Shown: positions 10,932 through 50,066 of the stretch, one piece after another | Layout of the letters: the number at the start of each line of letters is the position of its first letter | How positions within the stretch are numbered: the first letter of the stretch is position 1 | Sequence record: ON568341.1 | Reading direction: 5' to 3' (one strand) | DNA length: 64,000 nucleotides | DNA from: Escherichia phage UE-S1 | Program-made: the position numbers and the translations under genes | Notes under the pieces: generated by a model | Databases searched by the model: none | What the model saw: the letters and a program-made list of their open reading frames with translations, nothing else | What the model was told of the DNA's origin: nothing

Positions 10932-11047
10932 TTATTCCTCCATTGATATAATTATTATAGCGTATTTATTAGGTATATCAAAAAAGTGCTTGACTGGTGC
11001 ATAACAAAGTGCTACTATATAGTGAATGAATAAATGAGGCGTTTTTT

Positions 11048-22475: not shown

Positions 22476-22508
22476 CTACATCAAAAAACAACTGCAACTG
22501 AGGATACT

Positions 22509-23398: not shown

Positions 23399-23457
23399 TC
23401 TTAGTGCTGTATAATAATTCTTGAAATGTAAAAAACTTAAACATGAGGGTATAAAAT

Positions 23458-23778: not shown

Positions 23779-23870
23779 GATGTAATAAGTAATAGTGAAA
23801 CAACCTAGATATGATTAAATACTTCTGTACATACATATAGTACAGAAGTATTTCTTAGTAGAGGTTTGTT

Positions 23871-35913: not shown

Positions 35914-35966
35914 TTTCCATATTGACAGTACTAACAATGTGTAGTATTATACACTGGAGACACCTG

Positions 35967-36646: not shown

Positions 36647-36993
36647 TGTTTGAAGCTTATCTTGAGTTTTTAAGGAGTAGTCCAGTTGCACATTCACTTG
36701 CAGGGATTATTCTAACAACTTATGTAACATTTTGGGTAGTTATGTTTATAGGATGGTATTTTAAACGACAATTCTATAAACGTAATGTTGAAGATTTTAT
36801 GAATTCTGCAATTAATCAATCGTTGTTTGCATCAACATTTATTGCATGTATTGTAGCAACACTCACAGGAAAGGTACTACCAGCTTTTTCCGCAGTTTAC
36901 GGTACACTTGGGATGATATGTTTAACTTTTATATTGACCATTAAAATTTGTTGTGTTATGATTGAACTTCGAAACAAGATACCGGAGGAATGA
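36646..36993 (+). CDS. small membrane protein, paralogue family B (3 of 8)
   Basis: Hydrophobic helices, WYFKRQ motif, tail LRNKIPEE. Confidence 0.55.
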   Translation: MFEAYLEFLRSSPVAHSLAGIILTTYVTFWVVMFIGWYFKRQFYKRNVEDFMNSAINQSLFASTFIACIVATLTGKVLPAFSAVYGTLGMICLTFILTIKICCVMIELRNKIPEE

Positions 36994-37328
36994 TGGAGTA
37001 CTTTATTGATTTACTACCGTGGTATATGAAAGTTAGTACTTTGTACTATATTATTAGTGCTGGATTCTATTTCCTGATGTGGTTCTTTAAACGACCAATT
37101 TCAGTATTCATCTCTGACAACCTACTGCAATTAAAATTACACGCATGGTTTGGTATGTCCATGATTATGCCAATTATTCATTACTCGATGATTAGTAATG
37201 GTTTTCGTTCTAGTGGTGAGCCAGTTGTAATTGTATTTTATTGGGGTTCAACTATAGTATATGTCGGTTTTCTATTGTTCCCGATCATTCATAAATTACG
37301 TGCTAAAGTTCCTGATGCGAGGTACTAA
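36990..37328 (+). CDS. small membrane protein, paralogue family B (4 of 8)
   Basis: WFFKRP motif, tail LRAKVPDARY. Confidence 0.55.
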   Translation: MMEYFIDLLPWYMKVSTLYYIISAGFYFLMWFFKRPISVFISDNLLQLKLHAWFGMSMIMPIIHYSMISNGFRSSGEPVVIVFYWGSTIVYVGFLLFPIIHKLRAKVPDARY

Positions 37329-37642
37329 TGGATATAGTAACATTGATTTACACGTTGTATTCATTCTATTTTATTATGTGTTGGGTTGGATTTGTATTTG
37401 TACTCAAGATGTTTGATTATGTTGAAAGACAGATAAAAGATTTTTGTATTCCTTTTATCGGTTCAACCATTATTAGTGTTTCTTGTGTGTATTTTTTGGT
37501 GTTTGATCCACCAGATAACACTGCGATGATTGACTTCATGTTACTACCAACCACTATTATTTTTTTATGTAGTCTGATGCCACCTATTAGTCGTGGATTG
37601 ACTGAATTTAGACGCAAACAAAAGCGTAAAAGAGGGATGTAA
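37328..37642 (+). CDS. small membrane protein, paralogue family B (5 of 8)
   Basis: Hydrophobic; basic tail RRKQKRKRGM. Confidence 0.5.
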   Translation: MDIVTLIYTLYSFYFIMCWVGFVFVLKMFDYVERQIKDFCIPFIGSTIISVSCVYFLVFDPPDNTAMIDFMLLPTTIIFLCSLMPPISRGLTEFRRKQKRKRGM

Positions 37643-38010
37643 TGGAAATTGCTCTTATTATCTTAACTGCTATGCTGTTTATTAGTACTGTGGTTATAAT
37701 TGGTAAATTCTTTTGTGTATCATTTTTAGAAACGGTATACGATGAAATTGCTGATGATTATGAATTACAAGCCGGATTTTTTATTACGTATTGGCTTAGT
37801 TTATTTTGTCTAGTCATTGCTTGGATTTTGCATATCTTTAAATGGGGTATGGTAGATGGTGATCCTGTCATGGGAATTATTGTTCTAGTGTTTGGTATCC
37901 TTGGTGGTGCAGTGCATAATCTGATGGTTATCTGGCAAACTGTTCAATATGTTTTGGTTCCCTATTTTGAAAAGATGCACAGTACAATTAAAAAACGTAA
38001 ACGAGGTTAG
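37642..38010 (+). CDS. small membrane protein, paralogue family B (6 of 8)
   Basis: Hydrophobic; basic tail IKKRKRG. Confidence 0.5.
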   Translation: MEIALIILTAMLFISTVVIIGKFFCVSFLETVYDEIADDYELQAGFFITYWLSLFCLVIAWILHIFKWGMVDGDPVMGIIVLVFGILGGAVHNLMVIWQTVQYVLVPYFEKMHSTIKKRKRG

Positions 38011-38011
38011 T

Positions 38012-38374
38012 ATGAACGGGATAGAATTATCTTTCATTGGTCAATTACTAGTAATGGTGAATACTTTCATTTTCTCATTTATTGCATTGATGTGCATTGG
38101 AAAGTATTTCCACAAACGACCATTATCAAATTTATATGATGTAATAAAAAAGAAATATAGTCCAGCACACACTGTACTTATTAGTAGTTTCAATTTTGGG
38201 TTTGTTGTATTAATAATTGGATTGTTAACATCAACGTCGAATGTACTAATCTTCGGTCTTATGATTTGTTCATTGGTATTAGCAGCAATTATATGTTGTT
38301 TAGTACTGCACCTTGTAGTACTATTATATATAAAGCTCGTTGAAATCCATCAACGTTTAGGGATGAGGAAATAA
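38012..38374 (+). CDS. small membrane protein, paralogue family B (7 of 8)
   Basis: Track ORF 37949 trimmed to ATG after GAGG. Confidence 0.5.
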   Translation: MNGIELSFIGQLLVMVNTFIFSFIALMCIGKYFHKRPLSNLYDVIKKKYSPAHTVLISSFNFGFVVLIIGLLTSTSNVLIFGLMICSLVLAAIICCLVLHLVVLLYIKLVEIHQRLGMRK

Positions 38375-38375
38375 T

Positions 38376-38747
38376 ATGAGTTACCGTGAGATATTTTCCA
38401 TTATTTCAATTATTATGTTCAGTACTGGAACATTGGTGTGGGTATTATATTTTTTCTGTGTAGCACCAGTGTATAATATGTTATGTAATATTAAATCAAG
38501 TGCTGGATATATTACTTTTATGGTCTTTATGGGATATTATTGTCTAAGCATTTTAGGTGTTGTTTTGGTTGTTATATTAGATGTTGGACCGAATAGGGAT
38601 GGTCTGAAAATGTATGAGTTATTAACTATGTTTGGGTGTATGATACCAACAGCACTAATGTTTGTAGCTATTGGTGGTGGATGCATAAAGTTATACAATT
38701 ATTTAAAATCTATTCATCATTCCATTCACAATAAGCGTATGTCATAA
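38376..38747 (+). CDS. small membrane protein, paralogue family B (8 of 8)
   Basis: Hydrophobic helices; tail HNKRMS. Confidence 0.5.
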   Translation: MSYREIFSIISIIMFSTGTLVWVLYFFCVAPVYNMLCNIKSSAGYITFMVFMGYYCLSILGVVLVVILDVGPNRDGLKMYELLTMFGCMIPTALMFVAIGGGCIKLYNYLKSIHHSIHNKRMS

Positions 38748-39480: not shown

Positions 39481-40626
39481 TTATTTTTTCCAAGGAAGTA
39501 ACGAAGTTGGAATCTTGATAGGTATATTTGATGCAGCAACATCAGGAAAATTTGCATCTCCACAAACATACAAATTATCGATTTCGTCAATCAATAATGT
39601 ATAGTTGTAACTTCTACAAAAACCGCTTAAGCCTCTTCCCTCTAATGCAGATAAATTCATTTCAGTGAATTGAGTTATATATGTTTCATTTGAACCAACA
39701 CCACATTGACCATTAGCATTTATACCACAAGTAAGCAATTTATTATTGTTTTGAATTACACATGATGGTCCAGCAAGGTTCGTACCTAGTTCACCTACAA
39801 CATTAACTTCACCTTTTAATGATAAATTTTGGATCACTGTACTCATAGGGACACGCGATGTATTTCCAACACCTGCTTGTCCTGAGCCATTAGTGGATGC
39901 AACTTTAACAGTACCGTCATTAAGAAAAATATAAGATGTTTCGATGGTATTAACTGCTTGTGTAGCTGTTGTTATTGTCGTATCCTGCTTGAATTTAAGT
40001 ACATTTGTTGTTGTTGAACCAGATATAAATGTAGCACCTGCGTACCAATAGGTTCCATCTTGAAGTACTAAACCAGTACTTCTAATTGAACACCCTGCAC
40101 TGCGAACATTTTCTATATGACTATATGTAAAGGTTGATACGATTGAAGATTCACCATTACCGAACACCCCACCAGTACCTGCACCACAGAAAAACCATTT
40201 ACCGTTTTTCAAAAATACACGCATACAAGCAGAAATAACCACACTATCAATATCACTTGCAGCTACACCAAAATCGGTAAAGAAATGAGTTATATCAATC
40301 CAATTACCACCAGTATTTGATGGGAGATGGGGAATTACAACTCTAGTCCCTGTGTACCAGATTGTATCATCATCTTTAATAACAAGAGTACCTTGAACAC
40401 CACCCCAATACCTTGTTACATTTGTATTAACAAGCCTCCACTCAGTAGATGATTCAGTGGAGCCATTACCACCTTGACCATAAGATGATGAGCCGTGCCA
40501 GTATAAATTTCCATTTTTATCTAAATAAAATTTTGCATCAGCCGAACATTGCAATCTGTATTTGAATACGGTTTTTGGTGCTGGTGCAATATTTGCATAT
40601 TTTAGCATTCTACCAAAAGGTAACAT
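39481..40626 (-). CDS. RCC1-like beta-propeller protein with conserved MLPFGRM N-terminus (array member 9, most downstream)
   Basis: N-terminus MLPFGRMLKYANIAP; repeats such as GSSSYGQGGNG, CGAGTGGVFGNG, CGINANGQCGVG. Confidence 0.7.
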   Translation of the reverse strand: MLPFGRMLKYANIAPAPKTVFKYRLQCSADAKFYLDKNGNLYWHGSSSYGQGGNGSTESSTEWRLVNTNVTRYWGGVQGTLVIKDDDTIWYTGTRVVIPHLPSNTGGNWIDITHFFTDFGVAASDIDSVVISACMRVFLKNGKWFFCGAGTGGVFGNGESSIVSTFTYSHIENVRSAGCSIRSTGLVLQDGTYWYAGATFISGSTTTNVLKFKQDTTITTATQAVNTIETSYIFLNDGTVKVASTNGSGQAGVGNTSRVPMSTVIQNLSLKGEVNVVGELGTNLAGPSCVIQNNNKLLTCGINANGQCGVGSNETYITQFTEMNLSALEGRGLSGFCRSYNYTLLIDEIDNLYVCGDANFPDVAASNIPIKIPTSLLPWKK

Positions 40627-40665
40627 AATTTTTCTCCTTCATTCATTATACTGTATTTAATCCAA

Positions 40666-40693
40666 TTAAGAAAAGCTAGTATCAAGTACTGGC
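40666..40693 (-). terminator. inter-cassette hairpin plus T-run
   Basis: GCTAGTA-TCAAG-TACTGGC with T-rich tract on minus strand. Confidence 0.5.
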
Positions 40694-40704
40694 ATTTAAA
40701 AGAA

Positions 40705-41880
40705 TCAAATTGTCGGAAGTGGGAATTCTTTCATCACCGATGAACTGTTTGCTGCAATATTATCAGGAGATTTACCAGCGTAGTATAATTTATTATTAAT
40801 AAACATATATAGCGTTGCATCGTTCCCTGCTACAAGAGAATTACTTTTCTTAAAAATAACCCCTGGGGGTAAAATAGCTTCAACAAATGAACCTGATTCT
40901 CGTGTTGAATTGTTTGCCAATTGACCATTATTATTATAACCAGTACTATAAATTTTACCTGAACTATAATACACAAGACCACGTGTACTAATGTTTTCTA
41001 TACGAATGAATTCACTATCGTCCGGTACTGTAGTTGATAGAACTGGGTATAACTTATAAGCTGATGTTACATTATTATTACCCAATTGACCATAACCTTG
41101 AAAGCCTAGTGCATACATAGGACATGATTCTGGTGTACCTTTTGTTATAATACCAATATAATTCGAACTACAAAAAATATCCACTGCTTCTACAACATTT
41201 GTACCCTTATATTGAACCCAAGGAAATACATATGATTGTTGTTTGCCATTACCCAAAACACCGGAAGTTGTTGTACCTGTACGCCACATTGTATCATCAA
41301 GTTTAATAATCCAGTTAGCAGTTGTTATAGTTGAACAGAATTTTTTAACATTATCAACCAAGTATGTAAATTTATTATAATATGATGCAGTGTTTATTCC
41401 AAATTTAGCACCAGTATTGTCACCTAACAAATATAAACTATTATCTGTACCTAAAATCAAAACATAATCATGACCCACGTATATCTTTTTGATTTTTGAA
41501 ATACCAAATTGTGTAAAATAGCTGGTACATTCAGTGAATATTGTTACATGATTTGATGTATTATTACCTAGCCATTTATCTAAACCACTATAAAAGAACC
41601 TATCATCATTTGTGCGTATTAGACAAAAAGAATTATTTGTACTGCACCAGAAATCTTTGACATTACTATATATTTTTGTCCATTCAGTTACTTGATTAGT
41701 ATGACCTAAACCAAAAATTCCACCATTTTGTAGTCCCATAGCCCATATTGAACCATTTTTATCAAGAAGCATTGTGCATGTAAATGAATACCCACACGCT
41801 GGAGTAACTAATTTAACAAAATTGGGAATATATGGTAAAACTTTATTCCCATAATTCACCATTCTTCCAAAAGGTAACAT
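40705..41880 (-). CDS. RCC1-like beta-propeller protein with conserved MLPFGRM N-terminus (array member 8)
   Basis: MLPFGRMVNYGN; repeats GYGQLGNNN, NNNGQLANNS. Confidence 0.7.
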   Translation of the reverse strand: MLPFGRMVNYGNKVLPYIPNFVKLVTPACGYSFTCTMLLDKNGSIWAMGLQNGGIFGLGHTNQVTEWTKIYSNVKDFWCSTNNSFCLIRTNDDRFFYSGLDKWLGNNTSNHVTIFTECTSYFTQFGISKIKKIYVGHDYVLILGTDNSLYLLGDNTGAKFGINTASYYNKFTYLVDNVKKFCSTITTANWIIKLDDTMWRTGTTTSGVLGNGKQQSYVFPWVQYKGTNVVEAVDIFCSSNYIGIITKGTPESCPMYALGFQGYGQLGNNNVTSAYKLYPVLSTTVPDDSEFIRIENISTRGLVYYSSGKIYSTGYNNNGQLANNSTRESGSFVEAILPPGVIFKKSNSLVAGNDATLYMFINNKLYYAGKSPDNIAANSSSVMKEFPLPTI

Positions 41881-41916
41881 ATTCTCTCCTTATTCATTAT
41901 AATATATATTTAATAC

Positions 41917-41948
41917 AAATAATAATGCCAGTACTCAAATACTGGCAT
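41917..41948 (-). terminator. inter-cassette hairpin plus T-run
   Basis: ATGCCAGTA-CTCAA-ATACTGGCAT. Confidence 0.5.
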
Positions 41949-41953
41949 TATTA

Positions 41954-43144
41954 TTACAATTGTCTAGGTGTATCCAGAACATATCTATTTGTGCTAGGAC
42001 CGCCATCATCATAAGTTCCGGTTGAATATATATTTTTCATATCAGCAGTTAGAAATGTACGATACGAACCTCTATATATTTTTATTTTATCATACATATT
42101 ATATGTAATTTGTGCTGGCATTGGACATATAGTAAATCTTCCAATAGTCCCCACTGAACCTACCCCCAATGAGCCAGCATAACTACTCGCATTTAAACCA
42201 GTTGCATATACACCAGAACTCGTAACTAGTATACTAGATTGTGATGGGTATCCAGTATGAATTGAATACAAAGTTCCAGGTGGTAATGTCGTACTATTTC
42301 TCCCTAATACAGCAAGTGCCGAACTGGATGTGGTATTATTACCCCATGCACCATTACTTGCTAAACCACCAACTAGGAACTGACGTACACCCGTACTTGG
42401 ATTTTCCACCAAAGCACTGACTGAACCCATTGAGCATCCAGTGTATTGTAACGTTTTTGTGTATGTTGTACTTGGCTGATATAAAGTATATTCATTATAT
42501 AAAGTCCATGTAGTACTGGAACTTATACCGGATGTACCACCACCAATATATAAATTATTTTGTTTATCAAACAACATTACACAGTTATTTGTTGACATTA
42601 TTTGTGCAATATCAACATTAGGTGTTACTGCTTTTACAAATGAACCATCTGTTATTTGTTGAGTTTTTCCAGTACCATCAGCGAATTGTCTAGCCCCACT
42701 CCAACCAGTACTCCATATTGTATTATTATCCATTAAGAAAGTAAACCACGTAGTACCTGCATACATCTGTTTAATTGAAGTACTTGAACTTTGTTTGTAC
42801 AAATTTTCAATATATTGGTTATAACTTAAAAATGATGTAGTACTGGTTGGTAAACCAATATGACTACCAAATCCACAATAGAAATAATTTAAGTCATTAT
42901 CTTGAACTAACAAAGTTCCTTGTGTGATCCAGCAATCATTAACGTTTTCTCTAATTAATGTCCATGTTCTTAATGCAGTGTTGTTTCCTCTCCCAAACTG
43001 CCCAAAACTATTATTACCTCGTGCATATAGTTGACCATCAGTATAAAGTACAACAACATCAGTATCGGTTGTTAGTATTTTCTTAATTTGAAGTGGGATA
43101 GGTACAATATTCCCGTACTTAACCATTCTTGCAAAAGGTAACAT
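41954..43144 (-). CDS. conserved-N-terminus family protein, beta-propeller-like (array member 7)
   Basis: MLPFARMVKYGNIVP; G/S/T/N-rich with NSFGQFGRGNN repeat. Confidence 0.65.
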   Translation of the reverse strand: MLPFARMVKYGNIVPIPLQIKKILTTDTDVVVLYTDGQLYARGNNSFGQFGRGNNTALRTWTLIRENVNDCWITQGTLLVQDNDLNYFYCGFGSHIGLPTSTTSFLSYNQYIENLYKQSSSTSIKQMYAGTTWFTFLMDNNTIWSTGWSGARQFADGTGKTQQITDGSFVKAVTPNVDIAQIMSTNNCVMLFDKQNNLYIGGGTSGISSSTTWTLYNEYTLYQPSTTYTKTLQYTGCSMGSVSALVENPSTGVRQFLVGGLASNGAWGNNTTSSSALAVLGRNSTTLPPGTLYSIHTGYPSQSSILVTSSGVYATGLNASSYAGSLGVGSVGTIGRFTICPMPAQITYNMYDKIKIYRGSYRTFLTADMKNIYSTGTYDDGGPSTNRYVLDTPRQL

Positions 43145-43180
43145 ATTTTCCTCCTTTATTCATTATACTATATTTAATCA

Positions 43181-43208
43181 AAAAGAAAAGCCAGTATCAA
43201 GTACTGGC
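43181..43208 (-). terminator. inter-cassette hairpin plus T-run
   Basis: GCCAGTA-TCAAG-TACTGGC; minus strand followed by TTTTCTTTT. Confidence 0.55.
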
Positions 43209-43215
43209 CTATATT

Positions 43216-43953
43216 TTAGACTGAATTGTTAGGATAATATCTCCCCCTTCCCCATATTATTCGCACAGCACCACCACCAGCAGCCGTATAAGAAGAATTA
43301 TCCCATATACTACCACCACCACCATACCTCTTACCAGCACCACCACTACCAGCACCACCATTATATGAACCACCGTAGCTACCACCAATACCATTAGCAC
43401 CTTGAACAATGATACCAGTACCACCACCCGTACCAATGAACGAGGTACTATAGAATGTACCACCCCCACCGCCGCCACCAGCACCATTTTCACCAGTGAT
43501 TGCATCTCCGTTACCACCTTTACCAGTGTAGCCACCAGCACCACCACCAATGACTGCACCACCACTTACACCAGTGTTGCCACCATTACCACCACCATCA
43601 TTAATAGCGTTAGCAGCTTTTCCACCTAGTCCACCAACCGTATATGCACCAGTGAAGCTAACACATAGTTTTTCAGTTCCACGATATAAACCGTTTTCAA
43701 CTGCTGTAGTAGTGTTGGGATGTGTAAGAGAAACACTTAAGTACTCACCACCAGAAACCGGAATATTATTACGCCACGATAAGCCGCCACCAGCACCACG
43801 TTGACCACCCGGCGAAATAACACATACTGATATTTCGGTAACGCCAGCAGGAACTGTAAATTGTGTTGTTCCTATTGTCGTGATTAATTGTTCACCATGT
43901 GGCTTATATTCAATTTTATTCCCGAACTTAACCATTCTTCCAAAAGGTAACAT
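43216..43953 (-). CDS. conserved-N-terminus family protein with glycine-rich body (array member 6)
   Basis: MLPFGRMVKFGN then long GGxGG tracts. Confidence 0.65.
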   Translation of the reverse strand: MLPFGRMVKFGNKIEYKPHGEQLITTIGTTQFTVPAGVTEISVCVISPGGQRGAGGGLSWRNNIPVSGGEYLSVSLTHPNTTTAVENGLYRGTEKLCVSFTGAYTVGGLGGKAANAINDGGGNGGNTGVSGGAVIGGGAGGYTGKGGNGDAITGENGAGGGGGGGTFYSTSFIGTGGGTGIIVQGANGIGGSYGGSYNGGAGSGGAGKRYGGGGSIWDNSSYTAAGGGAVRIIWGRGRYYPNNSV

Positions 43954-43990
43954 AATTCCCTCCTTTATTTGTTATACTATATTTAATACA

Positions 43991-44018
43991 AAAAGAAAAG
44001 CCAGTACTCAGTACTGGC
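43991..44018 (-). terminator. inter-cassette hairpin plus T-run
   Basis: GCCAGTACT-CA-GTACTGGC. Confidence 0.55.
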
Positions 44019-44024
44019 ATAATG

Positions 44025-45167
44025 TCAATAAGTATCCCAAGGTAATGGTGTCTTCCTAAATCCATACCTGGTTGTGCTCGCACCATCACCAGCAATGTAT
44101 CTACCTATACCACATTGGTATAACTCTGTACTACTACATATAGCACCACCTATAGTACCACTACTCCACTGAATTATATTAGAATATGTTATTGGTAAAT
44201 CACTACATTTAGTATATACAGCAACGGTAGAAGCACCACTAATACCACCAAACATACTTCGCTTAGCACCAGTGTAATATATACCATCTGGACTCATAAA
44301 TGCAGAGGTGTAAGTTGTACTGCAATCCACTGGACTTCTTATTGTATTAAGATCGCCTGGATATGTTCTGACACCAAAGGTGTATACATTACCATCAGTT
44401 GTAATACCATTACCTAACTGCCCACTGTTTTGTCCACCACATGTAAGCAACGATGCAGAACCAGAAACAATTGCAGTAGCATTATACGAAGTGCCCATTG
44501 CAATAGAAGCACCAGACAATAGTTTTGGAGTAACAATAGCTGTTGTATTACCCTGGCCTAATTCACCATTTGTGTTTCGTCCCCATGCGTATATGGAAGT
44601 AGTATCCAACCTACATAGTACTGAACCATAACTAAACGTATATCGCATGTCAATTACCGCAGAAGGCAAATTAACCTTAGTTGCAACACTAATAACACCA
44701 CCAGTAACACCACTGTTTGCGTTCATGTTACGACCATATGCATATAAAGAACCATCTGAAGTTTTAATATGCATCATACCATCTGTACAATATAATGCAT
44801 CTATACTCTCCACCGCAACCGGACCCATACTGGTAGTTATATCGGTCCACCCAAGAGTAGTAGTACTAGAAATTAAGTTATTTCCTGCGTATAGTATTCT
44901 ATTATTATTAGTAACTACAACTGTATATCTGGCAGTAACACCAATTAATCGAACATCAGTATATATCTTAGACCACGCACCTAATGAATTGGTGTTTGCA
45001 TCCAAAAAGCCCAACTGCCCATCTGTATTGTATCCAATGCCCCATACATCACCTGCACTGTCCAATAACACTTCATGTGAAAATCCAATCTTAAAATCTT
45101 TTATTGTAGGAACTACCGGATCTGGTGCAATATTCCCGTACTTAACCATTCTAGTAAAAGGTAACAT
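44025..45167 (-). CDS. RCC1-like beta-propeller protein with conserved N-terminus (array member 5)
   Basis: MLPFTRMVKYGNIAP; repeats GYNTDGQLGF, GRNTNGELGQGN, GGQNSGQLGNG. Confidence 0.7.
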   Translation of the reverse strand: MLPFTRMVKYGNIAPDPVVPTIKDFKIGFSHEVLLDSAGDVWGIGYNTDGQLGFLDANTNSLGAWSKIYTDVRLIGVTARYTVVVTNNNRILYAGNNLISSTTTLGWTDITTSMGPVAVESIDALYCTDGMMHIKTSDGSLYAYGRNMNANSGVTGGVISVATKVNLPSAVIDMRYTFSYGSVLCRLDTTSIYAWGRNTNGELGQGNTTAIVTPKLLSGASIAMGTSYNATAIVSGSASLLTCGGQNSGQLGNGITTDGNVYTFGVRTYPGDLNTIRSPVDCSTTYTSAFMSPDGIYYTGAKRSMFGGISGASTVAVYTKCSDLPITYSNIIQWSSGTIGGAICSSTELYQCGIGRYIAGDGASTTRYGFRKTPLPWDTY

Positions 45168-45203
45168 AATTCCCTCCCTTATTCATTATAATATATTTAA
45201 TAC

Positions 45204-45234
45204 AAAAAAGAAAAGCCAGTACTTGAGTACTGGC
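45204..45234 (-). terminator. inter-cassette hairpin plus T-run
   Basis: GCCAGTACT-TG-AGTACTGGC. Confidence 0.55.
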
Positions 45235-45240
45235 ATTATG

Positions 45241-46350
45241 TTATTTTGGTAAATCAATTTTAGTAAAGACTGCAACATCCTCGCTTGCCCCAGGAATGGC
45301 GTAATACGATCCAGTACTATATACATCTCCGTCTTTGGTTAATATTGATGTTAAACCATCACTAAAAAGAACATCCCTAATCTCACTAACTTCAACGGGT
45401 AATTGTAAATTAGTAGCACTATATATTGCACCAGTTTGAGAATTGTTTAATCCCAAACCACGGTTCGCCCCAACACCCTTCTGATATGTACTAGTAATTA
45501 TCATTTGTGTAGCAGTATTTAAGGCAGGTGAATTCGTCATAAACAACGGAGAACTATTAGGCAAAGTACTTGCAGGAACTGCACGAAATGAAGTTGTATC
45601 TGAACTAAGAAAGTTTGGCGTTTGACCACATACGAAATATGATGTACCATTATAGTAATTAAATGCATTACCACCAATGACTGCATCGATTACACCAGAG
45701 CTACGTAATCCCCACGTGTTAATTTGTGTTCGGTTCCCCGTGCCATGCTGACCCCTGTCATTCCACCCAGAACTATATAACTTATTATCTAATGTAATAT
45801 ACATACTGTCATTTGCATTCGTCATTACTTTACGCACATTAGTAGCACATTGAGTTAATGTGTAAATTGATGATGAACCAATACCTAAAGCACCACGATA
45901 TCCATTAGCTCCTGCACCATAGAGTACTGAACTAGTGCTAAGTACAAATATTAAACCATACGAACATACAATATTAGCAATTTCACTCACTGGTATAGCA
46001 CTGGTAAACCAATTAGTTCTTTCAACTAATACTGTGCTGTAAGAAGTAGTTGTAGACGATGTGAACCAATATGTTTCCCCTGATGTCCATATAGTATTAT
46101 CATTTTTAATAATAACAAGTGCACGATCACCTACGAAAAAATTAGAAACATCTGCACTTACTAATATCCATGAAGATACCGTGTTTTTATTACCATTTCC
46201 AGATTCACCACCTTGATTTCTACCTATGTAATATAAATCATGTGAATCAGTTAATAAGAATTGACCCTGTGTAGATGCACCAACTTTAATTATATTTTTA
46301 GGACCAGGTACAATATTCCCATAATCAAACATTCTTACAAAAGGTAACAT
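45241..46350 (-). CDS. RCC1-like beta-propeller protein with conserved N-terminus (array member 4)
   Basis: Track ORF to 46365; start moved to internal ATG (MLPFVRMFDYGNIVP) with GGAG 9 nt upstream. Confidence 0.65.
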   Translation of the reverse strand: MLPFVRMFDYGNIVPGPKNIIKVGASTQGQFLLTDSHDLYYIGRNQGGESGNGNKNTVSSWILVSADVSNFFVGDRALVIIKNDNTIWTSGETYWFTSSTTTSYSTVLVERTNWFTSAIPVSEIANIVCSYGLIFVLSTSSVLYGAGANGYRGALGIGSSSIYTLTQCATNVRKVMTNANDSMYITLDNKLYSSGWNDRGQHGTGNRTQINTWGLRSSGVIDAVIGGNAFNYYNGTSYFVCGQTPNFLSSDTTSFRAVPASTLPNSSPLFMTNSPALNTATQMIITSTYQKGVGANRGLGLNNSQTGAIYSATNLQLPVEVSEIRDVLFSDGLTSILTKDGDVYSTGSYYAIPGASEDVAVFTKIDLPK

Positions 46351-46387
46351 AACTAAAATCTCCATATAATAATTATAATGTATTTAC

Positions 46388-46420
46388 AAAAAAATACCAG
46401 CACATATTTCAGTACTGGTA
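46388..46420 (-). terminator. inter-cassette hairpin plus T-run
   Basis: TACCAG..AGTACTGGTA stem with T7 on minus strand. Confidence 0.5.
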
Positions 46421-46425
46421 TAATG

Positions 46426-47607
46426 TTATGGTAAAATAATAGCTTGTAACGAACTCATACCCAATGTTGGAACACTCGCCTGTGGTGCTGGAGAATTCAA
46501 TTTTGGTGATGAAACCGCATATGACATTCCTGAACCCAAATCTGGATCAAAAACTACAGCACAATAATTCCCACTATATATAAGTCCATTCTTGTATCCT
46601 TGTGCACTTTGAATGCATTTCGTGAACGTACCAATATCTGTAGTGGCATTTATTAAGTTCCTCCCACGATAACCGCAGGTGTATATGAAATTATCATCGC
46701 CTATGTACATACTAGAATCCCCAGAAGAACTACATAGATACGACATATAAGCACGCATGTTTTTAGGAGCAACTGACAATGTACCTGCATAGAATTTATT
46801 ATTCGAACCCGTAATATTACCATCACCCAATGCACCAAAACTTCCCCAGCCAGTACCGTAATATCTCTTATCACTCAAAAATATAATACAGTTGTTATTA
46901 CACATCTTGATTTGATATATCAATGAAGGATCAATCCCAGGGAATGATTCAGTGAATGTTAGAACAGCCGGATCAGTACTAGCATTACATTGATGATATG
47001 TATTAGTACCAGCGGACAAGATTGTTCCATTAGCTAACAGAATTCTCGCAGTACCAGTACCAGCAGTACAAGCAACTGCACTTCCTGCACTTCCGGTGTA
47101 TATTTGTCTGAAAGTAAAGAAACCAACAGTTTTACTTCCCTGCCCACTCCAACCAGTATTATCAACTCCACACGCCCATACTGAACCATCTTGCATGATC
47201 ATCATTACACCAAAGCGTTCTATTGAAATATAAACAATCTTCGTTGTATCAACTGCACTAAATCTAGAAGTTATATCAGTCCATACCTTAACACTTACCG
47301 CCGTCGCACTGGAAGTAGGATCTTCACCAGCTATCATTATCCTCCCATTGTTAGTAAGATACATTGTCTGACTATAACCAGTACTACAAAACTTAACACT
47401 ATCAGTCTCTGGAACTTTTAACCACTCGTTGTAACGTGTTACGTTAGTGTTATTACCTAACTGATAATAGTTATTCATCCCAGATACATATAACACACCA
47501 TCCTTTATTAAACTATAAGTCGCACTATAGTCACTACAGGTATAACGTGTACCCACAGGTGGCTCAACGACGTTCCCGTACTTAACCATTCTCCCAAAAG
47601 GTAACAT
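46426..47607 (-). CDS. RCC1-like beta-propeller protein with conserved N-terminus (array member 3)
   Basis: MLPFGRMVKYGNVVEP; repeats NNYYQLGNN, DNTGWSGQGS, GSFGALGDGN. Confidence 0.7.
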   Translation of the reverse strand: MLPFGRMVKYGNVVEPPVGTRYTCSDYSATYSLIKDGVLYVSGMNNYYQLGNNTNVTRYNEWLKVPETDSVKFCSTGYSQTMYLTNNGRIMIAGEDPTSSATAVSVKVWTDITSRFSAVDTTKIVYISIERFGVMMIMQDGSVWACGVDNTGWSGQGSKTVGFFTFRQIYTGSAGSAVACTAGTGTARILLANGTILSAGTNTYHQCNASTDPAVLTFTESFPGIDPSLIYQIKMCNNNCIIFLSDKRYYGTGWGSFGALGDGNITGSNNKFYAGTLSVAPKNMRAYMSYLCSSSGDSSMYIGDDNFIYTCGYRGRNLINATTDIGTFTKCIQSAQGYKNGLIYSGNYCAVVFDPDLGSGMSYAVSSPKLNSPAPQASVPTLGMSSLQAIILP

Positions 47608-47642
47608 AATAAAATCTCCGTAATTAAATTATATAGTATTTA

Positions 47643-47676
47643 CAAAAAATACCAGTACATATTTCAGTACTGACCT
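47643..47676 (-). terminator. inter-cassette hairpin plus T-run
   Basis: CAGTAC-loop-GTACTG palindrome with T-run. Confidence 0.5.
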
Positions 47677-47680
47677 ATTA

Positions 47681-48802
47681 TTAAAAGGGCAACGGTAACT
47701 CAGTAAAAGTACTTACGTCCGGTAAACCATACATTAAATTAGCATCACCACAGTAATACCACTTCGTAGAATCATGTACCACCGATAAACGCTGTGCACA
47801 TAACACTTCCTGTATGTCATTAAACACCATCGGGACTAACTCATATGTATCTGCAAATGAAGATTCACTACCACTCGCATGAAAAGTATTTGTCCCAGCA
47901 TAAAATAACTGATTAGTGTTCTTACCCACAGCAAATGTTATCAAAACCCCATCATTCTCCCATAAAGAAGAAAACTTATCAACACTACCAGAAAGCTCTG
48001 TGTAAGTACTCGTAATGGCACTCGCCGCCGCCGCATTACCCATCTGTTTATTCAAGTTCTGTCCAGCAATAAAATATCTCGTTCGTGCACTAGAATCAGT
48101 ATATAATAACCCAGTGTTCGTAGTCATCATTCCAATGTCCTTAATCGTCATATCAGTCTGTGAATAACTTAGATACGAAGTTAAATTAACATTATTACCC
48201 AACGAACCGTTAGAACTCATGCCACAACGATGTAATATACCACTTGTATCAACGTAGATAGTACTAACTAAACTCGTATACAACTCTTGTACATTATTCG
48301 CAATAAACACAGCAGTCGCCTTATTACTAACCCCACCAAATGATAGGTTATTATCAAATCCCTTAGCGTATAATTGATTATTAGTAGTCAATAATCCAAT
48401 CGTGTAATAAGACATTTTCATATCCCTTACTGTACTCAAATCTACTGCCCCAAATTGATACGTAACATCTGTCCATTTGAAAATCTGTGCACTACCAACA
48501 CCACCCGTTTCAAACCATTTGTCACCACAGTACAATATGCGATTATCCTTAGTAAAGATAACTGTTAACAATCCACTACCACACGCAAACTTTACATCAC
48601 TTCTAACCTTCGTCCAATCAAGTACATAGGTAGTGGTGTTATTACCTATACCTAACTTGCCATAACGGTTATAACCACGCACCCATAAATCACCACTCTT
48701 AGTAATTAATAGTAATGCGTCTCCTGTACTTATTATTCGAAATCCCGAACTAGGATCAGGGGCAATATTCCCGTACTTAACCATTCTCCCAAAAGGTAAC
48801 AT
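47681..48802 (-). CDS. RCC1-like beta-propeller protein with conserved N-terminus (array member 2)
   Basis: MLPFGRMVKYGNIAPDP; repeats GYNRYGKLGIGNN, SSNGSLGNN. Confidence 0.7.
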   Translation of the reverse strand: MLPFGRMVKYGNIAPDPSSGFRIISTGDALLLITKSGDLWVRGYNRYGKLGIGNNTTTYVLDWTKVRSDVKFACGSGLLTVIFTKDNRILYCGDKWFETGGVGSAQIFKWTDVTYQFGAVDLSTVRDMKMSYYTIGLLTTNNQLYAKGFDNNLSFGGVSNKATAVFIANNVQELYTSLVSTIYVDTSGILHRCGMSSNGSLGNNVNLTSYLSYSQTDMTIKDIGMMTTNTGLLYTDSSARTRYFIAGQNLNKQMGNAAAASAITSTYTELSGSVDKFSSLWENDGVLITFAVGKNTNQLFYAGTNTFHASGSESSFADTYELVPMVFNDIQEVLCAQRLSVVHDSTKWYYCGDANLMYGLPDVSTFTELPLPF

Positions 48803-48837
48803 ATTTTCCTCCTTTATTCATTATACTATATTTAATA

Positions 48838-48869
48838 CAAAAAGAAATGCCAGTATCAAGTACTGGCAT
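48838..48869 (-). terminator. inter-cassette hairpin plus T-run
   Basis: ATGCCAGTA-TCAAG-TACTGGCAT. Confidence 0.55.
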
Positions 48870-48875
48870 ATTAAT

Positions 48876-50024
48876 TCATTGTATAAATGACATATCTACT
48901 TCTGTATAATTAAGAACGTTCTGTCCAGAAATACCACCCATTACTACTATTGCAAGGCCACAATAATATAATTTTCCAGTATCCGTAAGTATAAGTGATC
49001 CAGATGGACTGCGTACCAAATCACACGAACTATTAAAAGAAGTATAAGAAGGAGTATAGGAGTACTGATTATTATTATTACCAACACCTAATTGCCCAAA
49101 CCCATTCGATCCAGAAGCATATAGAACTTCATCTGCTTTGACAATATGTGATGCCATGTTACCAACACAAGTATATAGAGTATAAACTCCTGAACTCAAT
49201 AATGTCGGAGTTTTATATTGTATATCTGTAGATGTAGAAGTACCACCTGTACCAAATTCGTTCCCATATTGTGCACCGAACTGTTTGCCACAAGCGTACA
49301 AATTATTATCCGATTTGATAAAAAATGTACTCTGATAACTTACATTAAAATCTATAACATCCGAAGAAATCATCGTCACCCCAGTAATAGAAGTTTGATT
49401 ACCCGTGCCCAACTGGTAGTAATAGTTAAAACCACAACCCCATAAAGTATTATCTTCTCGCAAATAAATGTTACCAACTGCCTTTTTAACCGAAGTTATA
49501 GTATCTACTCTTTTGAATGTGTTAAAAGAATTAATGTTTGTACCATCACCAAATGATGATATGTTCGATATATTGTTAACTCCACAACAATACAATGTAC
49601 CATCTTTTGTTATCAAATTCACCTTCATATCATAAAAACTACTCATGTATTTTATATCAGAAACATTAACACCACTTGATGTTATCCACGTAGTACAGTC
49701 CGTCCACAAAGTTTTTCTATCAGTTACACCAGTGAATGCCTTCGTGTTACCAGTGATAAAAACTTTTCCAGTACCTTTCTCTTCATACAATTGACAATCA
49801 CTACTGTTATCTTCCAATAGAACTCGTTTAACATTCTCCGCACAAAGAATAAATTTACTCGATGCTACACCTGTACCAGTACCCCAATTCGTCGCAGAAG
49901 ATGCATACAACTTATCAGTATAAGTATCATGAAGATACATAGAATCACTGGAATATATTTTAAAACGCCCTTCTTTCTCAGGTATAATATTCCCGTACTT
50001 AACCATTCTCCCAAAAGGTAACAT
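48876..50024 (-). CDS. RCC1-like beta-propeller protein with conserved N-terminus (array member 1, most upstream)
   Basis: MLPFGRMVKYGNIIPE; repeats GFNYYYQLGTGN, GSNGFGQLGVGNN. Confidence 0.7.
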   Translation of the reverse strand: MLPFGRMVKYGNIIPEKEGRFKIYSSDSMYLHDTYTDKLYASSATNWGTGTGVASSKFILCAENVKRVLLEDNSSDCQLYEEKGTGKVFITGNTKAFTGVTDRKTLWTDCTTWITSSGVNVSDIKYMSSFYDMKVNLITKDGTLYCCGVNNISNISSFGDGTNINSFNTFKRVDTITSVKKAVGNIYLREDNTLWGCGFNYYYQLGTGNQTSITGVTMISSDVIDFNVSYQSTFFIKSDNNLYACGKQFGAQYGNEFGTGGTSTSTDIQYKTPTLLSSGVYTLYTCVGNMASHIVKADEVLYASGSNGFGQLGVGNNNNQYSYTPSYTSFNSSCDLVRSPSGSLILTDTGKLYYCGLAIVVMGGISGQNVLNYTEVDMSFIQ

Positions 50025-50066
50025 ATTCCCTCCTTATTCATTATATCATATTTACCCAAAAAACAC

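What the first reader, a model, noticed from the sequence alone, without database searches (positions are those of the whole stretch)
39481..50024. Nine tandem minus-strand genes share an identical 13-residue N-terminus but have divergent RCC1-like beta-propeller or glycine-rich bodies
Nine consecutive ~250-400-aa genes begin with nearly the same peptide (MLPFGRMVKYGNI, then A/V-P-x-P), after which the sequences diverge completely. Most bodies carry the RCC1-blade signature (G-x-N-x-x-GQLG-x-G). This layout (short invariant N-terminal tag plus diversified body) resembles capsid-targeted internal proteins of T4 (short targeting peptide) or a diversified lectin-like adhesin set; the tag is too short for a structural anchor domain and lacks the L-x-E cleavage motif of the T4 targeting sequence. 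Nothing in the sequence decides between a packaged anti-defence repertoire, a receptor-binding set, or something else.
Basis: partly seen in the sequence, partly recalled or inferred. Interest (0 to 1): 0.88.

Follow-up and report, generated by a model that had tools for sequence, protein, structure and literature searches.

The report
Shared docking peptide on jumbo-phage adhesins
Nine neighbouring genes of a giant E. coli phage start with the same 12-residue peptide, which most likely plugs interchangeable sugar-binding-type "heads" into a common site on the virus particle, and this had not been noticed in genes long mislabelled "DNA condensation proteins".

Summary
Nine minus-strand genes (39481-50024) begin M-L-P-F-x-R-M-x-x-[YF]-[GA]-N. 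Eight bodies are RCC1-like propellers about 22% identical to each other, and one is a polyglycine-rich domain.

The window is an Asteriusvirus-type jumbo coliphage (121Q/PBECO4/phAPEC6 group). The tag occurs across the Rak2-like jumbo clade except RaK2 itself, on at least four unrelated folds: RCC1 propeller, Kelch propeller, LamG/ConA jelly roll and polyglycine "brush" domain. Outside Asteriusvirus its codons vary while the amino acids hold.

Each gene carries a repeated terminator-promoter-Shine-Dalgarno-tag leader. Tags and leaders are exchanged among paralogues, and cassette order and content differ between relatives.

Best reading: a retained N-terminal docking peptide, like the 7- to 29-residue peptides of K1-5 and KP32 tailspikes, that loads a shuffled adhesin repertoire onto the virion. 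The acceptor site and an external location are inferred, not shown.

The parts
48876..50024 (-). Cassette 1 (first transcribed): tagged RCC1-like propeller protein, 382 aa, MLPFGRMVKYGNI...
   Evidence: ORF. Pfam PF25390/PF00415/PF13540 and phrog_4219. Orthologues are 93-97% identical in 121Q and phAPEC6 (gp549, detected by MS).
47681..48802 (-). Cassette 2: tagged RCC1-like propeller protein, 373 aa.
   Evidence: AF2 model m727a38a5340a: propeller, pTM 0.84, residues 1-17 pLDDT below 50. Foldseek top hits are UVR8 and RCC1, TM 0.75. Absent from 121Q and phAPEC6; 95% identical in fEgEco12.
46426..47607 (-). Cassette 3: tagged RCC1-like propeller protein, 393 aa.
45241..46350 (-). Cassette 4: tagged RCC1-like propeller protein, 369 aa. 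It carries the alternative tag allele MLPFVRMFDYGN. The true start is probably 46350, not 46365.
44025..45167 (-). Cassette 5: tagged RCC1-like propeller protein, 380 aa.
43216..43953 (-). Cassette 6: tagged polyglycine-rich ('brush'/ALK-GRD-like) domain protein, 245 aa.
41954..43144 (-). Cassette 7: tagged RCC1-like propeller protein, 396 aa.
40705..41880 (-). Cassette 8: tagged RCC1-like propeller protein, 391 aa.
   Evidence: No close orthologue in the fetched array stretches of 121Q, phAPEC6 or fEgEco12; the fEgEco12 stretch ends inside the array.
39481..40626 (-). Cassette 9 (last): tagged RCC1-like propeller protein, 381 aa.
48803..48875 (-). Representative intergenic leader: terminator-like hairpin ATGCCAGTACTTGATACTGGCAT plus T-run (48869-48847), then TAAATATAGTATAAT (48834-48820), AAAGGAGG, ATG. 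Equivalent leaders lie at 40627-40704, 41881-41953, 43145-43215, 43954-44024, 45168-45240, 46351-46425, 47608-47680 and 50025-50060.
   Evidence: Alignment of nine leaders. Hairpins. Motif positions. The leader occurs 8-17 times in most Asteriusvirus genomes.
49986..50024 (-). Tag-coding 39 nt (codons 1-13) of cassette 1. The same element opens every cassette (starts at 48802, 47607, 46350, 45167, 43953, 43144, 41880 and 40626).
   Evidence: Synonymous sites are invariant within the window (TTA CCT TTT AGA) but vary freely in other genera.
10954..10968 (-). The same TAAATAnnnTATAAT promoter-like motif upstream of another minus-strand gene (9777-10931, virion structural protein phrog_10468). 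It is not part of the array; it was used to classify the promoter.

Best explanation
**What it is.** The nine genes belong to a clade-wide family of virion-associated accessory proteins of Rak2-like jumbo phages. Their first 12 residues, M-[LI]-P-F-x-[RQI]-hydrophobic-x-x-Y-[GA]-N, are usually followed by a short Pro-containing linker.

**How it most likely works.** The peptide is a retained N-terminal docking peptide that inserts into one common acceptor site on the particle. Any ligand-binding 'head' fused behind it is thereby loaded onto the virion. The heads seen are RCC1 propeller, Kelch propeller, LamG/ConA jelly roll and polyglycine brush domain. They are most likely displayed outside, on the hair-like fibres or capsid and tail decorations seen in phAPEC6 and CBB, and act as accessory adhesins.

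**How the locus evolves.** Each gene is its own unit: terminator hairpin, late-type TAAATA..TATAAT promoter, Shine-Dalgarno sequence and tag. This repeated leader of about 130 nt is a substrate for homologous recombination. Recombination there homogenises tags within a genome and shuffles, adds and removes cassettes between relatives.

**Shown:**
- the tag exists and is under protein-level conservation;
- it sits on several unrelated folds;
- tagged proteins are in virion proteomes of three phages;
- tag residues 7-13 are retained in the particle;
- the tag has low AF2 confidence (pLDDT below 50) in both models, consistent with a flexible extension;
- leader repetition, concerted evolution and cassette permutation.

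**Inferred:**
- the docking function;
- an external location;
- an adhesin role;
- late timing of expression.
For: **The tag is conserved far more strongly than the bodies.**
- Among 63 RCC1-type paralogues from several genera (about 20% identical), 5 of the 6 invariant columns are tag residues: M1 P3 F4 Y10 N12. R6 and G11 are at least 90% conserved.
- Outside Asteriusvirus the codons vary (CCA/CCT/CCG/CCC, AGA/AGG/CGT, TAT/TAC, GGN) while the amino acids hold. Many of these genes are translationally coupled and lack the leader.

**The tag sits on unrelated folds.**
- 95 distinct tagged proteins fall into 11 BLAST clusters.
- They include RCC1, Kelch, Laminin_G_3 and polyglycine-rich bodies.
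- Xanthomonas phage XbC2 alone has at least 11 tagged genes.

**Tagged proteins are in virions.**
- phAPEC6: gp003, 005, 006, 007, 009, 010, 549 and 551 (PMC7247149 Table 1). All eight are tagged ORFs.
- CBB: CBB_536, 537, 548, 549, 551, 552 and 553, plus the tagged singleton at 173 kb annotated 'structural protein' in the CBB GenBank record (no peptide data checked for it) (PMC5259590).
- GAP32: gp001 (tagged).

**The tag is retained.** The CBB peptide report lists LFEYANVIIPPNYK, YANVIVEYATK and LLQYGNK, all within or spanning tag residues 7-13.

**The tag has low model confidence.** AF2 gives pLDDT below 50 for residues 1-17 (RCC1 model) and 1-10 (polyglycine model), while the bodies are confident. 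This is consistent with a flexible extension that does not pack against either body.

**The bodies look like external binders.**
- Composition is 41% G+T+S+N, 6% K+R and 6% D+E, with median pI 6.9.
- An RCC1-like gene with an MFPFAII N-terminus lies directly after a tail-fibre gene in phage PBES02.

**There is precedent.** Docking peptides of 7 to 29 residues attach K1-5/SP6 and KP32/KP34 tailspikes to the virion.

**The promoter resembles the late class.**
- The same motif precedes two other virion genes in the window.
- Its TAAATA core resembles the ATAAATA motif upstream of phAPEC6 and CBB structural genes.

**Cassettes are shuffled.**
- Cassette order and content differ between the window, 121Q, phAPEC6 and fEgEco12.
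- Orthologous bodies are 96-99% identical at nucleotide level in four of five pairs (91% in the fifth), whereas tag codons are only 74-85% identical in 3 of 5 pairs.
Against: - No acceptor has been identified. Pfam finds no T4gp10-like branching domain in the few structural proteins tested.
- No experiment localises any tagged protein on the particle. The phAPEC6 authors instead suggested an inner-body, DNA-organising role.
- The first six residues (MLPFxR) were never seen in the CBB peptide report, so partial N-terminal trimming is not excluded.
- The polyglycine paralogue is not annotated in the phAPEC6 or CBB records and has no MS evidence.
- Known docking-peptide systems involve trimeric tailspikes and one to four proteins per peptide. 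They do not involve 9-17 apparently monomeric heads sharing one peptide.
- Lectin-like proteins could co-purify with virions on host envelope debris.
Confidence: 0.55

Rival explanations
1. Internal cargo. The tag is a capsid-targeting sequence that recruits the proteins to the prohead core, as the T4 CTS does for IPI-III and Alt, but it is not cleaved. The proteins are packaged with the DNA (inner body) and ejected into the host as an anti-defence or host-takeover repertoire.
For: - Virion association is shown in three phages.
- The layout of a short shared N-terminal peptide on diversified bodies in a hypervariable locus parallels the T-even internal-protein genes (PMC3012670, PMC9026906).
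- A T4 CTS mutant that cannot be cleaved is still targeted to the capsid.
- phAPEC6 has an inner body of unknown composition, and its authors proposed the RCC1 proteins for it.
Against: - The tag is retained, and there is no L/I-x-E site.
- The proteins are 24-43 kDa, neutral and low in charge rather than small and basic.
- The folds are extracellular-type binders. The polyglycine body matches tail fibre and brush proteins.
- Seven-bladed propellers would have to unfold to pass through the tail tube (inference).
Confidence: 0.15
2. The peptide is a recognition motif for something other than a virion acceptor, for example an assembly chaperone, a modifying enzyme or an oligomerisation partner. 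Virion incorporation would then be mediated by another part of the proteins.
For: - The tag has low AF2 confidence and does not pack against either body in the models, which suits any linear-motif recognition.
- MLPFxR was not observed by MS, which could reflect modification.
- The RCC1 bodies share a weak C-terminal L-P(-W) motif.
Against: The unrelated folds (LamG, Kelch, RCC1) have nothing else in common, yet representatives of all three are detected in virions. The only shared element is the tag.
Confidence: 0.12
3. There is no protein-level function. The N-terminus is conserved only because it is part of a repeated promoter and translation-initiation cassette that is homogenised by gene conversion.
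For: - Within Asteriusvirus the tag codons are nearly invariant even at synonymous sites.
- The tag variant tracks the genome rather than the cassette.
Against: - In Munch, CBB, XbC2 and other genera the codons vary freely while the residues are conserved.
- Many tagged genes there have no leader at all.
- Cassettes without a leader in 121Q and fEgEco12 still keep the tag.
Confidence: 0.04
4. The proteins are non-structural, envelope-binding proteins that merely co-purify with virions on host membrane fragments.
For: - The folds are lectin-like.
- Membrane patches are seen on phAPEC6 tails.
- Peptide counts are low.
Against: - Detection is consistent, covering nearly all tagged proteins in three independently purified phages.
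- This reading gives no explanation for a conserved N-terminal peptide.
- There is no signal peptide with which to reach the envelope (sequence).
Confidence: 0.06

Closest known systems
N-terminal 'conserved (docking) peptides' of secondary receptor-binding proteins: K1-5/K1E/SP6 (heptapeptide MAKLTKP, undecapeptide MIQRLGSSLVK), KP34 (MALxxLV), KP32 gp38 (29 aa), and the PhiK64-1/RaK2 tailspikes
   Same: - A very short conserved N-terminal peptide sits on otherwise unrelated virion proteins, stays in the mature protein and is responsible for attachment.
- The heads are modular and swappable.
- Deleting the KP32 peptide abolishes incorporation, and fusing it to a foreign head confers incorporation.
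- RaK2, a sister genus, shows its own shared N-terminal peptides on its tailspikes.
   Different: - There is no sequence similarity between the peptides.
- Here one peptide serves 9-17 paralogues, not 1-4.
- The heads are small propellers, jelly rolls and a brush domain rather than trimeric beta-helix depolymerases.
- No T4gp10-like acceptor was found.
- The genes lie in a separate array, not in the tail-fibre module.
T4 capsid targeting sequence (CTS) of internal proteins IPI, IPII, IPIII and Alt
   Same: An N-terminal peptide of 10-19 residues is shared by highly diverse virion proteins encoded in a plastic locus, and it determines incorporation into the particle.
   Different: - The CTS is a propeptide removed by gp21 at L/I-x-E. 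Here tag residues 7-13 are found in mature virions and no such site exists.
- T4 internal proteins are described as basic (PMC9026906) and are small (background knowledge). These are neutral binding-type domains of 24-43 kDa.
PeSLs (promoter-early stem-loop cassettes) of T4-like phages
   Same: A composite terminator stem-loop plus promoter is repeated between genes of a hyperplastic region and serves as a point of homologous exchange that shuffles unrelated ORFs (PMC2839356, PMC4122927). The leaders here have the same anatomy, and cassette order and content differ between close relatives.
   Different: - The promoter here is late-like (TAAATA core, no -35) rather than an early sigma-70 type.
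- The repeat extends into the coding region (Shine-Dalgarno sequence plus 39 nt of tag), so recombination preserves a functional fusion point.
Polyglycine-rich / 'brush' adhesin domains (Salmonella phage S16 gp38, mycobacteriophage Bxb1 gp33, cyanophage Pam3 fibre) and the ALK glycine-rich domain
   Different: Here it is a free-standing 245-aa protein with the MLPF tag, not the tip of a long fibre or hub. Homologues in 145-150-kb contigs, including phage PVP-SE1, carry a different N-terminus, M-[LI]-E-[LM]-[LM].
Eukaryotic RCC1 / RCC1-like domain proteins (the source of the 'DNA condensation protein' annotation)
   Same: Seven-bladed RCC1-type propeller (Pfam; Foldseek TM about 0.75 to UVR8 and RCC1).
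   Different: - Only about 15% identical.
- Nothing indicates Ran-GEF or chromatin binding.
- Sister proteins with the same tag have LamG, Kelch and polyglycine folds, so the 'chromosome condensation' label is a fold name, not a function.

Membership tests
T4-type capsid targeting sequence (CTS) proteins | Short N-terminal peptide shared by otherwise divergent virion proteins | tested here: met
T4-type capsid targeting sequence (CTS) proteins | The peptide is a propeptide removed by the prohead protease at an L/I-x-E site | tested here: not met
   There is no Glu or L-x-E in the tag. Tryptic peptides LLQYGNK, YANVIVEYATK and LFEYANVIIPPNYK from inside the tag are present in CBB virions.
T4-type capsid targeting sequence (CTS) proteins | Small basic internal proteins located inside the head and ejected with the DNA | tested here: inconclusive
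   Size and charge do not fit: 24-43 kDa, median pI 6.9, K+R 6%. Location cannot be tested with these tools.
RBP docking ('conserved peptide' / branching-domain) systems | Short conserved N-terminal peptide on divergent virion-attached binding proteins, retained in the particle | tested here: met
   Virion proteomes.
RBP docking ('conserved peptide' / branching-domain) systems | A partner protein with a T4gp10-like branching domain or adaptor that receives the peptide | tested here: inconclusive
   A Pfam scan of nine structural or large proteins from the window and phAPEC6 found no gp10-like domain. Only a small part of the proteome was tested, and published detections of these domains relied on HHpred.
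RBP docking ('conserved peptide' / branching-domain) systems | Bodies are trimeric tailspikes or fibres, usually depolymerases | tested here: not met
   The bodies are propellers, LamG jelly rolls and a polyglycine domain, modelled with confidence as single chains (oligomeric state not tested).
RBP docking ('conserved peptide' / branching-domain) systems | Deleting the peptide abolishes incorporation, and the peptide confers incorporation on foreign heads | not testable with these tools
   Requires phage genetics, as was done for KP32.
RCC1-like repeat propellers (PF00415 / PF13540 / PF25390) | Repeated RCC1 blades forming a seven-bladed propeller | tested here: met
   Pfam hits in 8 of 9 proteins; PDB profile hits; AF2 plus Foldseek.
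RCC1-like repeat propellers (PF00415 / PF13540 / PF25390) | Chromatin or Ran binding ('DNA condensation') activity | not tested
   No evidence was found. The annotation is transferred from the fold name only.
PeSL-type mobile regulatory cassettes | Composite stem-loop terminator plus promoter repeated between ORFs of a hyperplastic region | tested here: met
PeSL-type mobile regulatory cassettes | The promoter is an early sigma-70-type promoter | tested here: not met
   There is no -35 element. The invariant TAAATA core resembles the late ATAAATA motif of structural genes.
PeSL-type mobile regulatory cassettes | Indels and swaps between close relatives have their boundaries at the cassette | tested here: met
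   Cassettes are present or absent and permuted between relatives. Identity breaks at the leader and tag in orthologue pairs.
Polyglycine-rich / brush adhesin domains (PF21722-type) | Glycine-rich domain fold shared with phage fibre and brush proteins | tested here: met

The most novel reading that the evidence does not exclude
A 'plug-and-display' system. One universal 12-residue docking peptide lets Rak2-like jumbo phages load a recombining library of up to about 17 unrelated lectin-like heads onto a single class of acceptor sites (the hair fibres, or the capsid and tail decoration sites). Each virion then carries a mixed, strain-specific adhesin coat. This would be combinatorial host or environment binding, distinct from the baseplate receptor-binding proteins.
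Probability: 0.3. Interest if true: 0.85.

Novelty: new variant of a known kind. Interest (0 to 1): 0.66.

Why it matters
**Re-annotation.** The dozens of 'DNA condensation / regulator of chromosome condensation / HERC1 / RPGR' annotations in Asteriusvirus, Mimasvirus and related jumbo-phage genomes would be re-interpreted as a family of virion-displayed binding modules.

**The hairy appendages.** It gives a concrete molecular candidate for the unexplained hair-like appendages of phAPEC6 and CBB.

**Reach of the docking-peptide principle.** The principle is so far shown for one or two tailspikes in podoviruses. This would extend it to a multi-fold repertoire of 9-17 members in myoviruses with 350-kb genomes.

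**A practical handle.** A 12-residue tag that might load arbitrary proteins onto a jumbo-phage particle would be useful for engineering.

**Evolution.** The leader cassette shows how a regulatory repeat that reaches into the coding sequence can keep a fusion point intact while shuffling the bodies behind it.

Tried and rejected
- **Solved phage structure containing these proteins.** Sequence searches of the PDB found only eukaryotic RCC1-like domains for the propellers and nothing for the polyglycine protein.
- **Literature.** Searches for RCC1 plus jumbo phage, Asteriusvirus, and 121Q/PBECO4 found no paper that mentions the shared N-terminus.
- **phAPEC6 peptide-level MS data.** No supplement is held.
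- **Exact DNA pattern of the tag in IMG/VR.** It was too narrow and also gave unrelated chance hits (L001, L005, L006). The degenerate pattern worked better.
- **A second tagged family in PVP-SE1.** The M-x-E-M-M N-terminus of polyglycine homologues in PVP-SE1 was checked as a possible second tagged family. PVP-SE1 gp19 is a singleton among replication genes, so the idea was not pursued.
- **Acceptor search.** The Pfam scan for T4gp10-like domains in candidate structural proteins was negative and uninformative.
- **RaK2.** It has no MLPF tag in its last 46 kb; its tailspikes share other N-terminal peptides.
- **Signal peptide or lipoprotein.** Rejected: the tag has no hydrophobic core and no Cys.
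- **N-degron.** Rejected: Leu at position 2 should block removal of Met1. This rests on background knowledge of methionine aminopeptidase specificity.
- **Propeller 'velcro' strand.** Rejected: the tag has pLDDT below 50 and does not pack against the propeller in the model, and it also occurs on non-propeller folds.
- **Antisense ORFs.** The ORFs inside the polyglycine gene (43257-43565 minus strand, 43550-43804 plus strand) are treated as by-products of the GGN-rich sequence.

Full report
**1. Observation**

Nine consecutive minus-strand ORFs occupy 39481-50024. All begin MLPF[GATV]RM[VLF][KND][YF][GA]N.

The 21-nt pattern ATGTTACCTTTTNNNAGAATG occurs nine times in the 64-kb window, only at these starts. 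It occurs 0 times in 100 dinucleotide-preserving shuffles.

The N-termini are very similar but not identical. Only 3 of 9 read exactly MLPFGRMVKYGNI; M1 L2 P3 F4 R6 M7 N12 are invariant. Behind the tag the bodies are 22-24% identical to the first paralogue.

Eight bodies match RCC1-like Pfam families and phrog_4219. The 245-aa gene (43216-43953) is glycine-rich, has no Pfam hit and matches phrog_4474.

The sixth gene most likely starts at 46350.

**2. What the window is**

The region matches Asteriusvirus jumbo coliphages (121Q, PBECO4, phAPEC6, fEgEco12 and others, 348-386 kb) at 87-98% identity. Only 25-38% of the array is covered in any one relative. The locus is therefore mosaic among close relatives.

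**3. Anatomy of one cassette**

Each gene is preceded by a conserved leader of about 85 nt:
- a G+C-rich hairpin (GCCAGTACTnnnGTACTGGC) followed by a T-run;
- then TAAATAnnnTATAAT;
- then AAAGGAGG and the ATG.

There is no -35 element.

The same TAAATAnnnTATAAT motif precedes the only two other large minus-strand genes in the window. One is a virion structural protein (phrog_10468, 9777-10931). The other is a tail-fibre/hydrolase-like protein (152-1849).

Structural genes of phAPEC6 (major capsid protein, gp226, gp231, gp232, gp238, gp242, gp244 and others) carry a T4-late-like (T)ATAAATA motif. The CBB paper reports ATAAATA before structural genes. The leader's invariant TAAATA core is therefore consistent with late transcription. 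This is an inference.

The leader occurs 8-17 times in most Asteriusvirus genomes.

**4. The tag is clade-wide and sits on unrelated folds**

A degenerate DNA pattern for the tag hit only contigs of 348-378 kb in IMG/VR, plus one 109-kb fragment.

Arrays were fetched from these phages:
- 121Q, with 12 tagged ORFs (two of them short fragments);
- phAPEC6, with about 14;
- fEgEco12, with at least 12;
- Salmonella phage Munch, with at least 14 (MIPF...);
- Pectobacterium phage CBB, with 10;
- Xanthomonas phage XbC2, with at least 11 (MLPFPQLVxYGN);
- GAP32-size and other contigs.

Together they gave 95 distinct tagged proteins in 11 BLAST-level body clusters.

Pfam names the bodies as RCC1 propellers, Kelch propellers and several Laminin_G_3/ConA-like jelly-roll subfamilies. 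There is also the polyglycine family, and several classes of 170-220 aa have no hit.

The consensus tag is M-[LI]-P-F-x-[RQI]-hydrophobic-x-x-Y-[GA]-N. Among 63 RCC1-type paralogues about 20% identical to each other, five of the six invariant alignment columns are M1, P3, F4, Y10 and N12.

**5. Protein-level or DNA-level conservation?**

Within Asteriusvirus the tag codons are almost invariant, even at synonymous sites.

In Munch, CBB and the other fetched non-Asteriusvirus loci the codons vary freely (CCA/CCT/CCG/CCC; AGA/AGG/CGT/CGA; TAT/TAC; GGN; AAT/AAC) while the residues are kept. Many of those genes are translationally coupled and have no leader. The peptide itself is therefore under selection.

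In Asteriusvirus there is also concerted evolution:
- The tag variant follows the genome, not the cassette. 121Q is mostly ...ARMVKYGN, the window mostly ...GRMVKYGN, and fEgEco12 has ...VRMFDYGN in 7 of 12 genes.
- In window-fEgEco12 orthologue pairs the bodies are 96-99% identical at nucleotide level in four of five pairs (91% in the fifth). The 39 tag nucleotides are only 74-85% identical in three of five pairs, and the leaders 70-81% in four of five (100% in the fifth).
- Cassette order is permuted. The window has E-Gly-F, fEgEco12 has E-F-Gly, and 121Q has F-Gly-x-E.
- Cassettes are gained or lost. Window cassettes 2 and 3 are absent from 121Q and phAPEC6. Cassette 8 has no close orthologue in any of the three fetched arrays.

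This is the behaviour described for PeSL promoter/stem-loop cassettes of T4-like phages (PMC2839356, PMC4122927). Here the promoter is late-type and the repeat runs into the coding sequence.

**6. Where the proteins end up**

Published ESI-MS/MS virion proteomes give three independent lines:
- In phAPEC6 the 'DNA condensation proteins' gp003, 005, 006, 007, 009, 010, 549 and 551 are virion-associated (PMC7247149, Table 1). All eight are tagged ORFs of the array.
- In CBB, CBB_536, 537, 548, 549, 551, 552 and 553 are detected (PMC5259590). All of them carry the tag. A tagged LamG singleton at about 173 kb is annotated 'structural protein' in the GenBank record. That makes 8 of 10 tagged proteins.
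- GAP32 gp001, a tagged RCC1-type protein, is also MS-confirmed.

The CBB peptide report (supplementary file 6) contains three peptides from inside the tag:
- LLQYGNK (CBB_553, residues 7-13);
- YANVIVEYATK (CBB_548, residues 10-20);
- LFEYANVIIPPNYK (CBB_536, residues 7-20).

Each follows the tag's Arg or Lys. The tag is therefore retained in the mature particle, at least from residue 7. No peptide containing MLPF was found. The six-residue tryptic peptide may simply be too short, so this is uninformative.

**7. Structure**

AlphaFold2 on a 63-sequence alignment models cassette 2 as a seven-bladed propeller (mean pLDDT 81.7, pTM 0.84), with residues 1-17 below pLDDT 50. Foldseek finds UVR8, RCC1 and HERC2 at TM about 0.75 and no phage structure.

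Polyglycine-rich or 'brush' domains are described as phage antireceptors.

The low pLDDT of the tag in both folds is consistent with a flexible extension. At least one body belongs to a class so far seen only on the outside of phage tails.

The family is low in charge (K+R 6%, D+E 6%), has a median pI of 6.9 and is 41% G+T+S+N.

The polyglycine body also occurs on 145-150-kb contigs and in phage PVP-SE1 without the MLPF tag. There it carries a different N-terminus, M-[LI]-E-[LM]-[LM]. This shows that the tag was grafted onto a pre-existing body.

**8. Mechanism**

The only feature shared by RCC1, Kelch and LamG proteins that all end up in virions is the 12-residue peptide. The peptide is retained and has low AF2 confidence, which is consistent with flexibility.

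The simplest explanation is that it is a docking peptide for a common acceptor on the particle.

Precedent exists:
- K1-5/SP6 tailspikes attach through a 7-residue and an 11-residue N-terminal peptide.
- KP34-type second RBPs attach through MALxxLV.
- For KP32 gp38, deleting the 29-residue conserved peptide abolishes incorporation, and grafting it onto a foreign enzyme confers incorporation (PMC6872550, PMC13352976).
- RaK2, a sister genus without MLPF tags in the 46 kb examined, has its own shared N-terminal peptides on its tailspikes (MxNxLIQPKGSVSKE; MSLSNLxSxN).

External display as accessory adhesins is inferred from four things:
- the folds;
- the hair-like fibres on phAPEC6 capsids and tails and on CBB tails, whose proteins are unassigned;
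- an RCC1-like gene with an MFPFAII N-terminus directly after a tail-fibre gene in the 150-kb phage PBES02.

Not shown: the acceptor (Pfam found no T4gp10-like domain in nine candidates), the location, any ligand, and the timing of expression.

**9. Rivals**

- *Uncleaved capsid-targeting signal for internal or ejected cargo.* This is the phAPEC6 authors' 'inner body' suggestion and the T4 CTS analogy. It is not excluded. It fits poorly with tag retention, the absence of an L/I-x-E site, protein size and charge, and the fibre-type fold.
- *Chaperone or modification motif.* Possible, but it does not explain why the tag is the only common element of virion-incorporated proteins.
- *Pure DNA-level conservation.* Refuted.
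- *Co-purifying envelope-binding proteins.* Unlikely, given three independent proteomes.

**10. Comparison and novelty**

The paralogue arrays and their virion association are in the literature under the label 'DNA condensation / RCC1-like proteins'.

None of the papers found describes any of the following:
- the shared N-terminal peptide;
- its presence on unrelated folds across the clade;
- its retention in virions;
- the leader cassette;
- the concerted evolution.

It works like the known RBP docking peptides. It fails two of that group's usual features: the bodies are not trimeric tailspikes, and no gp10-like partner has been identified. It also differs in scale, with one peptide serving 9-17 heads.

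It is not a T4-type CTS, because the cleavage feature was tested and not met.

I class it as a new variant of a known kind. Interest is 0.66. The finding is real, non-trivial and testable. It has a clear engineering angle and corrects a widespread misannotation. The principle of short docking peptides on swappable heads is, however, already established.

Noticed in passing
window 35922-38747 (+ strand): There is a tandem run of about eight paralogous ORFs of 104-141 aa that look like multi-pass membrane proteins, directly next to the array on the opposite strand. The same neighbourhood exists in CBB (CBB_539-547, 'putative membrane protein', lying between tagged genes 536/537 and 548-554). Any functional link to the tagged family is unknown.
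   Followed up: partly
window 71-145 (+ strand): ARAGORN calls a tRNA of undetermined identity with a 4-base anticodon 'tcat' (an 8-nt anticodon loop), at the edge of a tRNA cluster (Ser, Met, Asn, Thr at 2918-4849). It could be a frameshift-suppressor-like or degenerate tRNA.
   Followed up: no
window 10954-10968 and 1939-1953 (- strand): The TAAATAnnnTATAAT motif of the array leaders also precedes the two other large minus-strand genes in a mostly plus-strand region of small ORFs. These are a virion structural protein (9777-10931, phrog_10468) and a tail-fibre/hydrolase-like protein (152-1849). Virion genes therefore appear to be scattered as late-promoter islands.
   Followed up: partly
L010 (fEgEco12) 10855-23797; window 46350: Two tag alleles coexist within one genome: MLPFVRMFDYGN (7 of 12 genes in fEgEco12, one gene in the window) and MLPF[AG]RMVKYGN. 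They differ by a charge switch at position 9 (K to D). This could mean two acceptor sites or be neutral.
   Followed up: partly
proteins P0005, P0007, P0010, P0028, P0034, P0050 (PVP-SE1 gp19; L026 9001-9843): Homologues of the polyglycine body on 145-150-kb contigs and in phage PVP-SE1 (the identified examples are rV5-like) lack the MLPF tag but share another short N-terminus, M-[LIF]-E-[LM]-[LM]. In PVP-SE1 the gene is a singleton among replication genes.
   Followed up: partly
L027 (Cronobacter phage PBES 02) 6001-7197: A 150-kb Vequintavirinae phage encodes an RCC1-like protein beginning MFPFAIIPPF... directly downstream of 'tail fiber protein 2'. This is a partial look-alike of the tag (M-x-P-F-x-I-I) in a tail-fibre module.
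   Followed up: no
L029 (RaK2) 22765-45683: The RaK2 tailspike and fibre genes gp526, 527, 529 and 530 share M-x-N-x-L-I-Q-P-K-G-S-V-S-K-E, and gp531-534 share an MSLSNLxSxN-like N-terminus. No MLPF tag is present in this 46-kb end of the genome.
   Followed up: partly
window 43257-43565 (-), 43550-43804 (+), 44380-45252 (+): Long ORFs lie in other frames or on the opposite strand, overlapping the polyglycine gene and an RCC1 gene. They translate to low-complexity V/L/P-rich strings and are most likely compositional artefacts.
   Followed up: no
L008 (phAPEC6) 2360-3506, 5992-7716; L025 (CBB) 6475-8361: Public records leave tagged ORFs unannotated. In phAPEC6 these are tagged ORFs at 2434, 6063 and 7325, the last being the polyglycine orthologue. 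In CBB a frameshifted polyglycine-type remnant ends ...GAVRIIYGDDRSFPN just upstream of CBB_554. These proteins could not have been found in the published MS searches.
   Followed up: partly
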